Shown here one piece after another: positions 1,397 to 3,827 of a stretch of DNA of 8,307 bases. This stretch comes from a virus. Its lineage: Duplodnaviria > Heunggongvirae > Uroviricota > Caudoviricetes. A program made the translations under genes and the position numbers. The notes under the pieces were generated by a model, which did not search any database, was not told the origin of the DNA, and saw only the letters and a program-made list of their open reading frames with translations. Position 1 is the stretch's first letter. Each line of letters opens with the position of its first letter. The stretch lies in IMG/VR virus record IMGVR_UViG_2690315922_000019, positions 1-8,307 of that record. The stretch is one strand, 5' to 3'.

Positions 1397-1427
1397 CAGC
1401 CTCACCACTCTAAAACACACAACAATA

Positions 1428-1457
1428 ACCCGACCTTAGCGTCGGGTTTTCTTTTTC
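1428..1457 (+). terminator. Rho-independent terminator downstream of cI
   Basis: Stem cccgac (1429-1434) / loop cttagc / gtcggg (1441-1446) followed by ttttcttttt. Confidence 0.55.
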
Positions 1458-1521: not shown

Positions 1522-1550
1522 TTGACTCAATAAAGTACACATCGTACTAT
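1522..1550 (+). promoter_or_regulatory. Candidate PL promoter with an overlapping OL-type operator dyad
   Basis: TTGACT (1522-1527), a 17-bp spacer, then TACTAT (1545-1550). The dyad AGTAC-N5-GTACT (1534-1548) overlaps the spacer and -10. It lies about 45 bp upstream of nutL. Confidence 0.45.
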
Positions 1551-1596: not shown

Positions 1597-1630
1597 GCTC
1601 TTTAACTTCGATGGGGCGCTGACAAAGCGC
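1597..1630 (+). promoter_or_regulatory. nutL: boxA (GCTCTTTAAC) plus a P22-type boxB (GCGCTGACAAAGCGC)
   Basis: gctctttaac at 1597-1606, a 9-nt spacer, then gcgct-gacaa-agcgc at 1616-1630, which is the P22-type boxB hairpin with a GACAA pentaloop. It sits between the candidate PL and N. Confidence 0.7.
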
Positions 1631-1749: not shown

Positions 1750-2085
1750 ATGACGGTAATCGTGTACGGAAAATCAACATTTGCAGGAAATGCCAAAACT
1801 CGCCGTCATGAGCGGCGCAGAAAGCTGGCTATCGAGCGTGATGCCATCTGCAACATCATTGATTCTATCTTCGGCACAGACAGTGAGGAGCCTGTTCAGG
1901 AAGAGCCGAGAAAGCGTTTAAGTCTTTCTGAAAAAGCGATATCACTCGGAAGCCTTCGCTGCAAGAAGGCAGAAGAAGTCGAGAGTAAACAGAATCGTAT
2001 TTACTACAGCAAGCCACGCAGTGAAATGGGTGTGACTTGTGTTGGTCGCCAGAAAATGAAATTAGGCAGCAAACCACTTATTTGA
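1750..2085 (+). CDS. N: N antiterminator (111 aa), with a P22-type arginine-rich motif and a lambda-like C-terminus
   Basis: MTVIVYGKSTFAGNAKTRRHERRRKLAIERD… matches the P22 N (gene 24) arginine-rich boxB-binding motif as I recall it. The C-terminus …YYSKPRSEMGVTCVGRQKMKLGSKPLI resembles the lambda N C-terminus (…WYSKPGERGITCSGRQKIKGKSIPLI). A gagga ribosome-binding site lies at 1738-1742. The ORF in the track starting at 1666 is an upstream extension. Confidence 0.85.
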   Translation: MTVIVYGKSTFAGNAKTRRHERRRKLAIERDAICNIIDSIFGTDSEEPVQEEPRKRLSLSEKAISLGSLRCKKAEEVESKQNRIYYSKPRSEMGVTCVGRQKMKLGSKPLI

Positions 2086-2093
2086 GGTGATAT

Positions 2094-2543
2094 ATGGAAG
2101 AACAAGCAAACAAGATTCTCGTAGAACTACTGCAAAAAGCCAGCAATGGAATAGACGCGGCTGTTTCATTTAGCCAGGCACAGATTCCTGATGTTGTTCA
2201 TCAGTTGCTAATATGGAATATGGTTGACAGTCTGATTAAAACATTAATAGCCATTCTAACAATCCCACTGGTTTTCTGGTTTATGAAGAAGCAGTGCCAA
2301 AGAGTTGAGACAGGTAAAATCGGTGATGAAGGATATTCATGGGAGAAGGGAAAACCCAAATACAGGCCGACAATGGTTTGGGATAGCAAAGGTGATATTA
2401 ATCTTCTTATCATGCCATTGGTTGGAGTTTTGACTCTGTGGGGGATTTATATTATTGGTGCAGTAACCAATATGACTTGGTTAAAAATTTGGCTTGCCCC
2501 AAAGCTTTACCTTATCGAATATGCAGCATCATTGGTTAAGTAA
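2094..2543 (+). CDS. Small two-helix membrane protein (149 aa); possible superinfection-exclusion (SieB-like) function, by position only
   Basis: ORF with a gaggtg ribosome-binding site 4 nt before the ATG, immediately after the N stop with no intervening terminator. Two hydrophobic segments (LIKTLIAILTIPLVFWFM and INLLIMPLVGVLTLWGIYIIGAV). It occupies the slot between N and cIII where lambda and P22 carry sieB and ral. I do not recognise the sequence itself. Confidence 0.6.
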   Translation: MEEQANKILVELLQKASNGIDAAVSFSQAQIPDVVHQLLIWNMVDSLIKTLIAILTIPLVFWFMKKQCQRVETGKIGDEGYSWEKGKPKYRPTMVWDSKGDINLLIMPLVGVLTLWGIYIIGAVTNMTWLKIWLAPKLYLIEYAASLVK

Positions 2544-2547
2544 TTTC

Positions 2548-2575
2548 AGGCCGCATAGTCGGCCTTTATTTTTGG
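2548..2575 (+). terminator. Rho-independent terminator after the membrane-protein gene
   Basis: Stem aggccg (2548-2553) / loop catagt / cggcct (2560-2565) followed by ttatttttgg. Confidence 0.6.
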
Positions 2576-2692
2576 CATAAACAACAGAATAAACACTGCA
2601 CTGTGTATTCATTCCAACGAGTGAATACACGGAGCAATGTCGCTCGTAACTAAACAGGAGCCGACTTGTTCTGATTATTGGAAATCTTCTTT

Positions 2693-2720
2693 GCCCTCTA
2701 ATGTGAGGGCGATTTTTTAT
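2693..2720 (+). terminator. Second rho-independent terminator (tL2-like cluster)
   Basis: Stem gccctc (2693-2698) / loop taatgt / gagggc (2705-2710) followed by gattttttat. Confidence 0.6.
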
Positions 2721-2738
2721 CTGTGAGGGTATGAATAG

Positions 2739-3107
2739 ATGTCAAACATCAAAAAATACATCATTGATTACGACTGGAAAGCATCAATAGAAATTGAAAT
2801 CGACCATGACGTAATGACAGAGGAAAAACTTCACCAGATTAATAATTTCTGGTCAGACTCTGAATACCGACTCAATAAACACGACTCTGTATTAAATGCT
2901 GTATTAATCATGCTGGCGCAACATGCTCTGCTTATAGCAATTTCAAGCGACTTAAATGCATATGGTGTTGTGTGTGAGTTCGACTGGAATGATGGAAATG
3001 GTCAGGAAGGATGGCCTCCAATGGATGGTAGCGAAGGAATAAGAATTACCGATATCGATACATCAGGAATATTTGATTCAGATGATATGGCTATCAAGGC
3101 CGCCTGA
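2739..3107 (+). CDS. Highly acidic 122-aa protein; possibly the counterpart of lambda Ea10 (by position and size), function unknown
   Basis: ORF with a gaggg ribosome-binding site 9 nt upstream. By my count it has 23 Asp+Glu against 8 Lys+Arg, with an acidic C-terminal tail (DIDTSGIFDSDDMAIKAA). It lies immediately upstream of cIII, as ea10 does in lambda. Confidence 0.65.
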   Translation: MSNIKKYIIDYDWKASIEIEIDHDVMTEEKLHQINNFWSDSEYRLNKHDSVLNAVLIMLAQHALLIAISSDLNAYGVVCEFDWNDGNGQEGWPPMDGSEGIRITDIDTSGIFDSDDMAIKAA

Positions 3108-3179
3108 GTGCGGCGTTACCGCATACCAATAACGCTTCACTCGAGGCGTTTTTCGTTATGTATAAATAAGGAGCACACC

Positions 3180-3320
3180 ATGCAATATGCCATTGCAGGG
3201 TGGCCTGTTGCTGGCTGCCCTTCCGAATCTTTACTTGAACGAATCACCCGTAAATTACGTGACGGATGGAAACGCCTTATCGACATACTTAATCAGCCAG
3301 GAGTCCCCAAAAATGGATAA
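3180..3320 (+). CDS. cIII: CIII, inhibitor of FtsH-mediated CII degradation (46 aa here; 54 aa in lambda as I recall)
   Basis: [46 protein letters not shown] matches lambda CIII as I recall it. An aaggag ribosome-binding site lies at 3168-3173. A TAA stop at 3318-3320 ends the protein 8 codons earlier than in lambda. The ORF in the track starting at 3108 is an extension. Confidence 0.85.
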   Translation: MQYAIAGWPVAGCPSESLLERITRKLRDGWKRLIDILNQPGVPKNG

Positions 3321-3456
3321 AAAACTTATGGCTATCCAGACAAAATTCACTATTGCCACTTTTATTGGCGATGAAAAGATGTTTCGTGAGGCCGTCGACG
3401 CTTATAAAAAATGGATATTAATACTGAAACTGAGATCAAGCAAAAGCATTCACTAA
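3313..3456 (+). CDS. kil: Kil (47 aa), host cell-division (FtsZ) inhibitor
   Basis: [47 protein letters not shown]. It overlaps the cIII 3' end and the first 46 nt of gam, reproducing the lambda cIII/kil/gam overlap geometry. The ORF in the track starting at 3187 is an extension. Confidence 0.8.
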
Positions 3457-3827
3457 CCCCCTTTCCTGTTTTCCTAATCAGCCCGGCATTTCGCGGGCGA
3501 TATTTTCACAGCTATTTCAGGAGTTCGGCCATGAACGCTTATTACATTCAGGATCGTCTTGAGGCTCAGAGCTGGGCGCGTCACTACCAGCAGATAGCCC
3601 GTGAAGAGAAAGAGGCAGAACTGGCAGACGACATGGAAAAAGGCCTGCCCCAGCACCTGTTTGAATCGCTATGCATCGATCATTTGCAACGCCACGGGGC
3701 CAGCAAAAAAGCCATTACCCGTGCGTTTGATGACGATGTTGAGTTTCAGGAGCGCATGGCAGAACATATCCGGTACATGGTTGAAACCATTGCTCACCAT
3801 CAGGCTGATATTGATTCAGAGGTATAA
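3411..3827 (+). CDS. gam: Gam (138 aa), RecBCD inhibitor
   Basis: [61 protein letters not shown]… is near-identical to lambda Gam as I recall it. The internal Met at 3531 corresponds to the short GamS form. Confidence 0.95.

What the first reader, a model, noticed from the sequence alone, without database searches (positions are those of the whole stretch)
2094..2543. Unrecognised two-helix membrane protein translationally adjacent to N, in the sieB/ral slot
The gene starts 8 nt after the N stop with its own ribosome-binding site and no terminator in between, so it is made whenever PL fires. The protein has a ~45-aa soluble N-terminus and two hydrophobic helices, and it is followed by two tandem terminators. 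In lambdoid phages this position holds superinfection-exclusion or anti-restriction cargo (sieB, ral), which is swapped frequently. The sequence does not match anything I can recall, so it may be an uncharacterised exclusion or abortive-infection determinant.
Basis: partly seen in the sequence, partly recalled or inferred. Interest (0 to 1): 0.6.

Follow-up and report, generated by a model that had tools for sequence, protein, structure and literature searches.

The report
Uncharacterised phage membrane-hairpin protein beside N
The gene is real and makes a small two-pass inner-membrane protein together with the antiterminator N; it is not SieB but a member of a very large phage family that nobody has characterised, with fixed ends and a swappable membrane core, whose function (probably at the cell envelope during lytic growth) is still unknown.

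Summary
ORF 2094-2543 (149 aa) starts 8 nt after the N stop with a strong SD. It has two hydrophobic helices and is followed by two terminator hairpins.

It is not an orphan. It matches PHROG 3054 ("unknown function") over its full length. A profile search finds about 5,200 clusters (50% identity) of 120-180 aa single-domain relatives in phages and prophages of gamma- and beta-proteobacteria, temperate and virulent. There is no Pfam, NCBIfam, PADLOC or PDB match. It is not SieB (hhalign probability 0.07%).

The first ~45 and last ~22 residues are nearly invariant. The TM1-loop-TM2 core is hypervariable and is exchanged as a cassette: flanks are 96-100% identical in DNA and the centre is at random level. 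A confident AlphaFold model of a short-loop relative (pLDDT 92) is one long helical hairpin. The conserved termini pair into a stalk outside the membrane.

The gene roams. It follows N in E. coli lambdoids, sits at the 3' end of lysis cassettes in about 20 of 83 lineages, and is scattered in early regions of virulent phages.

In this window it lies upstream of the first PL terminator and has no promoter of its own. It is therefore an immediate-early lytic gene, not a lysogen-expressed exclusion gene.

My best guess, at low confidence, is Imm-like exclusion at the envelope during lytic growth. Lysis timing and anti-defence are rivals.

The parts
1522..1550 (+). PL-like sigma-70 promoter (TTGACT-17-TACTAT) that drives N and the target gene
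   Evidence: Consensus scan. Its position between the repressor gene and N fits lambdoid PL (inference).
1597..1630 (+). nutL-like site: boxA-like GCTCTTTAAC (1597-1606) and boxB hairpin GCGCTGACAAAGCGC (1616-1630)
   Evidence: Read directly from the sequence. The identity of the boxB sequence with P22 boxB-left is from my own knowledge and was not tested with a tool. The N arginine-rich motif GNAKTRRHERRRKLAIER is P22 gp24-like.
1750..2085 (+). Antiterminator N gene (111 aa from the ATG at 1750)
   Evidence: Pfam PF25694 N_peptide E=7.3e-26. PHROG 271 'anti-termination protein N-like' E=2.5e-46.
2082..2088 (+). Shine-Dalgarno GAGGTGA of the target gene, overlapping the N stop codon. It is part of a ~27-40 nt junction or 'boundary' sequence that travels with the gene.
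   Evidence: The junction TTTGAGGTGATATATGGAAGAACAAGC recurs (<=3 mismatches) at the gene start in 88 loci, including loci with different core alleles. In a few loci it occurs a second time one cassette upstream. It also resembles the lambda orf28 start region.
2094..2543 (+). Target gene: 149-aa two-pass membrane protein, member of PHROG 3054
2094..2225 (+). Constant N-terminal segment (aa 1-44): acidic, helical, with family motif F26-x5-IPDVVxQLLxW41
   Evidence: Alignments A1, A2, A4, A6. DNA is 96-100% identical to Sf6 gene 34, 13KWH46 and ETEC1722 alleles. dN/dS is 0.06-0.25.
2229..2465 (+). Variable core: TM1 (aa 46-64), 39-aa W/Y/G/K-rich loop (aa 65-103), TM2 (aa 104-124)
   Evidence: Hydropathy. 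Random-level DNA identity to other alleles of different length. Within this core type the loop motif EGYSWxKGxPKY..T[LM][IV]W[DE]SxG is conserved from Escherichia to Pantoea. dN/dS is about 0.3-0.4.
2475..2540 (+). Constant C-terminal amphipathic segment (aa 128-149): WLKIWLAPKLYLIEYAASLVK, ending at a conserved C-terminal K
   Evidence: I132, A135, P136, K137, E142 and Y143 are invariant in A2. DNA is 86-100% identical across core alleles. It pairs with the N-terminal helix in the AF2 model of relative P0188.
2548..2575 (+). First intrinsic-terminator-like hairpin plus T-run, 5 nt after the stop codon. Lambda homology resumes inside it at 2555.
2603..2630 (+). Extra 12-bp perfect hairpin (GTGTATTCATTC-CAAC-GAGTGAATACAC) without a T-run, between the two terminators
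   Evidence: RNA fold. Function unknown.
2691..2722 (+). Second terminator-like hairpin plus T-run. Homologous to the site annotated tL2A in phage Sf6.
   Evidence: Window 2478-2718 aligns to Sf6 locus 3358-3598 at 93%, where 3571-3599 is annotated tL2A.

Best explanation
SHOWN.
- The gene encodes a small inner-membrane protein of a very large, uncharacterised phage family (PHROG 3054).
- The protein is one long alpha-helical hairpin. The bend is the membrane anchor TM1-loop-TM2. This core is hypervariable and is exchanged between phages as a cassette.
- The open end is an antiparallel helical stalk outside the membrane. It is built from the nearly invariant N-terminal ~45 and C-terminal ~22 residues.
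- In this prophage the gene follows N by 8 nt, has no promoter of its own, and lies upstream of the first PL terminator. It is therefore made with N as an immediate-early lytic product, without needing antitermination.

INFERRED (low confidence).
- It acts at the cell envelope during lytic growth as an Imm-like superinfection-exclusion factor. The conserved stalk would engage a conserved host envelope or inner-membrane component (or self-assemble) and block DNA entry by secondary phages.
- Charge bias places the stalk in the periplasm for this core type.
- The variable core would serve as anchor and perhaps as a specificity element.
- It is not a lysogen-expressed SieB-type abortive-infection protein.
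For: Architecture and family:
- Full-length PHROG 3054 match, E=2.6e-63.
- 5,208 clusters at 50% identity with E<=1e-3; all of the best 150 listed are 120-180 aa and match end to end.
- Termini are conserved and the core is variable.
- Cassette mosaicism inside the gene.

Timing:
- SD and 8-nt spacing.
- No promoter or terminator between PL and the gene. The first terminators lie after it.

Lytic-cycle role:
- Relatives occur in virulent phi92-like, N4-like and Vibrio phages, mostly in early or replication regions.

Conflict-type cargo:
- The gene sits in the lambda sieB/ral slot.
- In a metagenomic phage it lies next to a Lar restriction-alleviation gene.
- ral co-occurs with it in 30 loci, but lambda-type sieB in only 1.

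Topology over 290 relatives: K+R density is 0.046 in the N-tail (net charge -3.5) against 0.158 in the loop.

Precedent, from established knowledge: T4 Imm is a small early inner-membrane protein that blocks DNA entry. P22 SieA is an inner-membrane exclusion protein (PMC10883804, listed).
Against: - No experiment or homology ties the family to exclusion.
- About 20 of 83 lineages carry the gene at the 3' end of a lysis cassette on the same strand. In several of these the start overlaps the i-spanin stop (L139, L146, L165, L194). That implies late expression, which is poorly suited to exclusion.
- Vibrio phage K366 carries both this gene and a gene annotated 'immunity to superinfection'.
- Topology is ambiguous for short-loop alleles. 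In ETEC1722 the loop is NKGDDAD.
- The conserved stalk could just as well be cytoplasmic.
- The model of the window protein itself was poor (pLDDT 66).
Confidence: 0.28

Rival explanations
1. Lysis-timing regulator (antiholin-like or lysis-inhibition factor). The membrane hairpin would modulate holin triggering or spanin action. The early copy in lambdoid phages would pre-load the membrane with the regulator.
For: - Lysis genes are the most recurrent neighbours across 83 family lineages: Rz i-spanin PF03245, Phage_lysozyme, Peptidase_M15_4, and holins 3_1 and 3_2.
- They are upstream in every such lineage and on the same strand in all but one; no lineage has them downstream. At least 18 lineages were labelled this way, and about 2 more were found later.
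- The gene start overlaps the i-spanin stop in several lineages.
- Four-gene holin-endolysin-spanin-X cassettes are inserted between tail genes (L132, L134, L102, L145).
- Close relatives of the window protein (L079 at 89% identity, L096 and L097 at 76%) lie after lysozyme-Rz rather than after N.
- Small two-TM lysis regulators exist, for example N4 gp62 (PMC12642591).
Against: - Most lineages, about 60 of 83, are far from lysis genes. This includes virulent phages whose lysis cassettes are elsewhere.
- In this window the gene is immediate-early.
- There is no covariation between core type and lysis system. The same core occurs with SAR-endolysin, holin3_1+lysozyme and holin3_1+NNPGNIR-endolysin cassettes, while L194 and L245 share a lysis system but have different cores.
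- There is no similarity to any Pfam holin family or to N4 gp62 (hhalign probability 0.08%).
- The site after Rz/Rz1 is also a classic insertion point for unrelated accessory genes, such as bor in lambda (my own knowledge).
Confidence: 0.2
2. Anti-defence or host-takeover factor. The protein would neutralise a membrane-embedded host system, for example a defence system with a membrane sensor or effector, or an envelope stress or protease pathway, immediately after infection.
For: - Immediate-early position next to N.
- Neighbouring cargo in the same operons is host-takeover or anti-restriction: ral, Lar, cIII, kil, gam.
- The gene is conserved in virulent phages.
- A fast-evolving, cassette-swapped core is compatible with an arms race.
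Against: - No match to any PADLOC model or known anti-defence family. No partner was identified and no neighbour is conserved.
- The most conserved parts, not the variable ones, are the likely binding surface.
- Late, spanin-coupled copies fit poorly.
Confidence: 0.15
3. Prophage-expressed superinfection-exclusion or abortive-infection determinant in the manner of SieB.
For: It occupies the slot that holds sieB in lambda. It almost never co-occurs with lambda-type sieB: 1 locus, against 30 loci with ral. A terminator directly follows the gene, as in morons.
Against: - Not homologous to SieB.
- Co-directional with PL, 8 nt after N, with no promoter-like site upstream. It should therefore be silent in a repressed prophage, whereas lambda sieB is on the opposite strand.
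- The family is conserved in obligately virulent phages.
- No promoter-like site was found upstream of the Pantoea copy either.
Confidence: 0.07

Closest known systems
PHROG 3054 ('unknown function'; called 'Phage transmembrane protein' or 'TMhelix containing protein' in UniRef and GenBank). Members include Sf6 gene 34, phi92 gp220 and Shigella phage B2 gp83.
   Same: True homology: a full-length HMM match at E=2.6e-63, the same length class, and the same N- and C-terminal motifs.
   Different: Nothing differs in kind. The window carries the 149-aa long-loop core allele. Sf6 has a 140-aa allele, and HK633, SPN9CC and ETEC1722 have a 121-aa short-loop allele. No member has an assigned function.
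Lambda/P22 SieB (Pfam PF14163)
   Same: Same genomic slot between N and the tL2 region, and also a small phage accessory protein.
   Different: No sequence or profile similarity. Lambda sieB is on the opposite strand and is expressed from the prophage (the latter from my own knowledge). This gene depends on PL.
T4 Imm (Pfam PF14373, Imm_superinfect) and P22 SieA: inner-membrane superinfection-exclusion proteins
   Same: Small, early, inner-membrane phage proteins. This is the functional analogy I favour.
   Different: No Pfam hit to PF14373 or any other family. A phage can carry both this gene and an Imm-type gene (Vibrio phage K366). The conserved stalk outside the membrane has no counterpart that I know of in Imm.
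Two-TM lysis regulators and antiholins (for example N4 gp62, PMC12642591)
   Same: Small two-TM proteins with both termini on the same side of the membrane. About a quarter of family lineages sit in lysis cassettes.
   Different: hhalign probability is 0.08% against N4 gp62. In gp62-like proteins the TM domains are conserved, whereas here the TM helices are the variable part. This copy is immediate-early and far from any lysis gene.

Membership tests
PHROG 3054 (uncharacterised phage transmembrane protein family) | Full-length match to the family HMM | tested here: met
   E=2.6e-63, residues 1-149 against profile positions 1-137 of 137.
PHROG 3054 (uncharacterised phage transmembrane protein family) | Family motifs F-x5-[IL]P[DE]V[IV]xQLLxW (N-terminal) and [IV]APK[ILV][YW]L[IL]EYAAxLxK (C-terminal) flanking two hydrophobic helices | tested here: met
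   F26, P32, V34, Q37-L39, W41, I132, A135-K137, E142 and Y143 are all present.
SieB (Pfam PF14163) | Sequence or profile similarity to SieB | tested here: not met
   No PF14163 hit at E<=1. The positive control, lambda SieB, hits at 1e-29. hhalign of A2 against lambda SieB gives probability 0.07%.
SieB (Pfam PF14163) | Own transcription unit that is active in the lysogen (opposite strand to PL in lambda) | tested here: not met
   Same strand as PL, 8 nt after N, with no promoter-like site in 1551-2093. Lambda sieB is on the opposite strand.
SieB (Pfam PF14163) | Aborts lytic growth of superinfecting phages | not testable with these tools
   Needs plating and burst assays.
T4 Imm-type superinfection immunity (Pfam PF14373) | Match to the Imm_superinfect profile | tested here: not met
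   No Pfam family matched at E<=1.
T4 Imm-type superinfection immunity (Pfam PF14373) | Blocks DNA entry of secondary phages | not testable with these tools
   Needs DNA-entry and efficiency-of-plating experiments.
Holins and antiholins (Pfam Phage_holin_* families; N4 gp62-like regulators) | Profile similarity to a described holin or antiholin family | tested here: not met
   No Pfam hit. hhalign against N4 gp62 gives probability 0.08%.
Holins and antiholins (Pfam Phage_holin_* families; N4 gp62-like regulators) | Location in the lysis cassette with late expression | tested here: not met
   Not met for this copy, which lies in the PL operon next to N. It is met for about 20 of 83 family lineages.
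Moron (autonomous accessory transcription unit in a prophage) | Own promoter upstream and terminator downstream | tested here: inconclusive
   A terminator lies directly after the gene here and in Pantoea. No sigma-70-like promoter was found upstream in either. The scan is a crude consensus search.

The most novel reading that the evidence does not exclude
PHROG 3054 could be a new, very widespread class of phage envelope factor. It would be a membrane-anchored helical stalk with an invariant 'business end' and a recombinationally swappable membrane or loop cassette. It would control traffic across the inner membrane during infection, acting as a general superinfection or lysis-inhibition sensor, or as an inhibitor of membrane-embedded defence sensors. 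That would explain why it sits either beside N or behind the spanins.
Probability: 0.15. Interest if true: 0.8.

Novelty: new variant of a known kind. Interest (0 to 1): 0.45.

Why it matters
A family with thousands of sequence clusters is conserved from lambdoid prophages of pathogenic E. coli to virulent phi92-, N4- and Vibrio-type phages. It has no Pfam model, no structure and no function. In this phage it is one of only two proteins made before N-mediated antitermination. If it controls entry of competing phages, lysis timing or a host membrane defence, it would add a common and so far invisible player to phage-phage and phage-host conflict. It would also be relevant to phage-therapy cocktails, because phi92-like and N4-like phages carry it. 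The constant-ends, swappable-core design gives a ready experimental handle through allele swaps.

Tried and rejected
- Family libraries. Pfam, NCBIfam and PADLOC scans of the protein gave nothing.
- SieB membership was rejected.
- Relation to the N4 gp62 two-TM lysis regulator was rejected.
- Structure searches.
  - The PDB sequence-profile search gave 0 hits at E<=10.
  - Foldseek against PDB gave 0 hits.
  - Foldseek against BFVD returned only uncharacterised homologues, for example in Pseudomonas phage Bjorn.
  - The afdb50 library was unavailable.
- The first AF2 model, of the window protein with a 46-sequence alignment, was poor (pLDDT 66) and was not used for inference.
- Holin-specificity hypothesis. 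I asked whether the core allele tracks the lysis system. It does not, so this was rejected.
- Conserved-neighbour search. No neighbour is conserved across the family beyond the partial lysis-cassette association.
- Literature. Searches for 'phrog_3054' and 'Sf6 gp34', and the context searches, found nothing on this family.
- Source names are only 'hypothetical' or 'Phage transmembrane protein'. The single JGI name 'NqrD' for P0147 looks like a spurious transfer.
- Rfam found no RNA family in or next to the gene.

Full report
**1. The window and the observation**

The window is the immunity and early-left region of a lambdoid prophage, with PL transcription running on the + strand. Its gene order is:
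- cII and cro-like genes on the - strand;
- a LexA-family repressor at 662-1396;
- N at 1750-2085;
- the target ORF at 2094-2543;
- ea10/DUF2528, cIII, gam, bet, exo, xis and int.

- The N stop TGA is at 2083-2085, followed by 8 nt (GGTGATAT) and then ATG at 2094.
- A GAGGTGA Shine-Dalgarno overlaps the stop.
- No terminator-like site lies between N and the ORF.
- Two terminator-like hairpins with T-runs follow, at 2548-2565 and 2691-2712.
- RNA 2540-2725 is far more structured than shuffles (z = -5.97) and holds an extra 12-bp hairpin at 2603-2630.
- Kyte-Doolittle hydropathy gives two helices, at about aa 46-64 and 104-124, after a 45-aa acidic N-terminus.

A PL-like promoter lies at 1522-1550. 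A nutL-like boxA/boxB lies at 1597-1630. Its identity with P22 boxB-left is from my own knowledge. The gene lies upstream of the first terminator, so it should be co-transcribed with N before antitermination. That makes it an immediate-early product (inference from anatomy).

**2. A real gene and a very large family**

- The protein matches PHROG 3054 ("unknown function") end to end, E=2.6e-63.
- It has no Pfam, NCBIfam or PADLOC match.
- tblastn finds it in 178 phage records:
  - Stx2a-converting phages and phages Gally and HF4s (95-96%);
  - Salmonella phage Oslo (87%);
  - HK639 (58%);
  - Sf6 gene 34 and CUS-3 (about 50%);
  - HK633 and SPN9CC (50%);
  - N4-like Schitoviridae (about 37%);
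  - many Vibrio phages (30-37%);
  - phi92-like Justusliebigvirus (28%).
- Word-seeded searches returned 497, 90 and 54 relatives. All were "hypothetical", "TMhelix containing protein" or "Phage transmembrane protein".
- An exhaustive profile search of 1.84 billion representatives found 5,208 clusters (50% identity) at E<=1e-3 and 2,393 at E<=1e-10. All of the best 150 listed are 120-180 aa and match end to end.
- Genome scans place it in Enterobacterales, Pseudomonas, Thalassotalea/Vibrio and several Betaproteobacteria.
- It occurs full-length in 130 of 5,426 complete E. coli genomes. Its ends alone occur in 114 more.
- dN/dS against 56 ungapped alleles is 0.06-0.25 in the ends and about 0.3-0.4 in the core. 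The whole gene is therefore protein-coding and under purifying selection, and the core evolves faster.

**3. Anatomy: constant ends and a swappable core**

In every alignment the first ~45 and last ~22 residues carry almost all the conservation.
- Conserved N-terminal positions: MNEQ/MEEQ at the start, F26, P32-D-V34, Q37-L-L39 and W41.
- Conserved C-terminal positions: I132, A135-P-K137, L140, E142-Y-A-A145 and a C-terminal K.
- The two TM helices and the loop vary in both sequence and length.

At the DNA level I compared the window gene with three other alleles: Sf6 gene 34, E. coli 13KWH46 and E. coli ETEC1722.
- The first ~120 nt are 96-100% identical.
- The last ~60 nt are 86-100% identical.
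- The centre is at random level (0-43%) and differs in length (149, 140 and 121 aa).

So at least three core cassettes sit between constant ends in E. coli and Shigella lambdoid phages.

Within the window's core type the loop is itself conserved from Escherichia to Pantoea (EGYSWxKGxPKY..T[LM][IV]W[DE]SxG). This shows that the core is functional.

AlphaFold2 gave two models.
- The window protein with 46 sequences was poor (pLDDT 66).
- The short-loop relative P0188 (35% identical) with 117 sequences was confident (pLDDT 91.9, pTM 0.67). It is all-helical, with helices 3-70, 75-95, 99-105 and 107-119.

For topology, over 290 relatives the N-tail has a K+R density of 0.046 and a net charge of -3.5. 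The loop has a K+R density of 0.158. By the positive-inside rule this favours termini-out and loop-in for long-loop alleles such as this one. Short-loop alleles are ambiguous. Topology therefore remains an inference.

**4. Genomic behaviour: a roaming single-gene cassette**

In lambda the N-to-ea10 interval holds sieB (opposite strand), orf28 and ral.
- Window 2555-3243 is 98.5% identical to the lambda DNA that starts right after ral.
- The second terminator is homologous to Sf6 tL2A.
- The SD/start junction resembles the lambda orf28 start and a second site in Sf6, where "boundary sequences" are annotated.
- That junction travels with the gene in 88 loci, whatever the core allele.
- Among close relatives the distance to N ranges from direct adjacency to about 1 kb of other small ORFs.
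- ral co-occurs in 30 loci, lambda-type sieB in only 1.

I fetched 230 loci from IMG/VR, called ORFs and clustered the neighbours. There are 83 family lineages at 80% identity. The most recurrent neighbours are lysis genes:
- Rz i-spanin PF03245;
- Phage_lysozyme;
- Peptidase_M15_4;
- holins 3_1 and 3_2.

These lysis genes lie upstream in every such lineage and on the same strand in all but one. At least 18 lineages, plus about 2 found later, have the order holin-endolysin-spanin-X. Other points:
- Several starts overlap the i-spanin stop.
- Some form four-gene cassettes inserted between tail genes.
- Even close relatives of the window protein (L079 at 89% identity, L096 and L097 at 76%, Pantoea P0110 at 63%) sit behind the spanins rather than behind N.
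- Only 7 lineages are next to N, cIII or RecT, although these hold most of the sampled loci.
- The remaining ~60 lineages have heterogeneous neighbours: replication, nucleotide metabolism, connectors and tail genes.
- Core type does not track the lysis system.

**5. What it is not**

- It is not SieB. There is no PF14163 hit, while lambda SieB scores 1e-29. hhalign probability is 0.07%.
- It is not related to the N4 two-TM lysis regulator gp62.
- It has no relative among solved structures.
- No paper in the held library mentions the family.

**6. Interpretation**

The following points are shown:
- a real, immediate-early, PL-dependent gene;
- a two-pass membrane helical hairpin with an invariant stalk and a cassette-swapped core;
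- membership of a very large uncharacterised phage family that behaves as a free-standing accessory gene in both temperate and virulent phages.

The function is inferred, with these confidences:
- Lytic-cycle envelope role of the Imm type, blocking secondary infection through the conserved stalk: 0.28. This rests on early timing, the conflict-gene slot, presence in virulent phages and precedent.
- Lysis-timing regulator: 0.20. This is supported by the lysis-cassette association. It is weakened by the majority of contexts, by the lack of covariation and by this copy's timing.
- Anti-defence or host-takeover factor: 0.15.
It is least likely for this copy because there is no promoter, the gene is co-directional with PL, and homologues occur in virulent phages.

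**7. Verdict**

The gene is catalogued but entirely uncharacterised, and it resembles known small phage membrane accessory proteins only in kind. Interest is moderate at 0.45. It is not a surprise in category. It is, however, a large blind spot with an unusual constant-ends, variable-core design and clear experiments to run.

Noticed in passing
window 3167-3225 (+): Rfam RF01804, the lambda cIII thermoregulator element: 88.5 bits, E=3.9e-21, a full-length model match at the start of the cIII gene.
   Followed up: no
window 2603-2630 (+): A perfect 12-bp hairpin (GTGTATTCATTC-CAAC-GAGTGAATACAC) without a T-run lies between the two terminators. The whole 2540-2725 RNA folds with z = -5.97. It could be a processing or protein-binding site. 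It lies in DNA shared at 98.5% with the lambda region downstream of ral.
   Followed up: partly
window 2069-2105; L001 2644-2683 and 2992-3124; L019, L063, L075, L076 (second copies ~330-390 nt upstream): The ~30-40 nt SD/start junction of the gene recurs at other cassette starts in early-left operons and resembles the lambda orf28 start. It looks like the 'boundary sequences' annotated in Sf6 and is probably a recombination joint for cassette exchange.
   Followed up: partly
L002 (phage HK633, JQ086377.1) 3001-3366: HK633 carries an intact 121-aa family member (short-loop allele). The record annotates only its last 58 codons (HK633_044) plus an overlapping ORF (HK633_045). This is probably a mis-annotation.
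   Followed up: yes
window 1427-1448 (both strands): A symmetric GC-rich hairpin just after the repressor gene scores as a terminator on both strands. It may be a bidirectional terminator between the immunity region and PL.
   Followed up: no
window 2094-2738 compared with lambda (L248): This prophage has no ral and no sieB between N and ea10. The single membrane-protein gene replaces the whole lambda sieB-orf28-ral segment.
   Followed up: yes
L005 (Vibrio phage K366) 3001-3405: Here the family gene is a lone + strand gene inside a - strand tail-morphogenesis block, a moron-like placement. The same phage also has a gene annotated 'immunity to superinfection' at 266-460.
   Followed up: no
window 6029-6250 (+): A small ORF (73 aa) has a C4 zinc-finger motif (CCECGDPI...CRTCASCQ) that looks like a TraR/DksA-type protein. 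This is read from the translation only and was not scanned.
   Followed up: no
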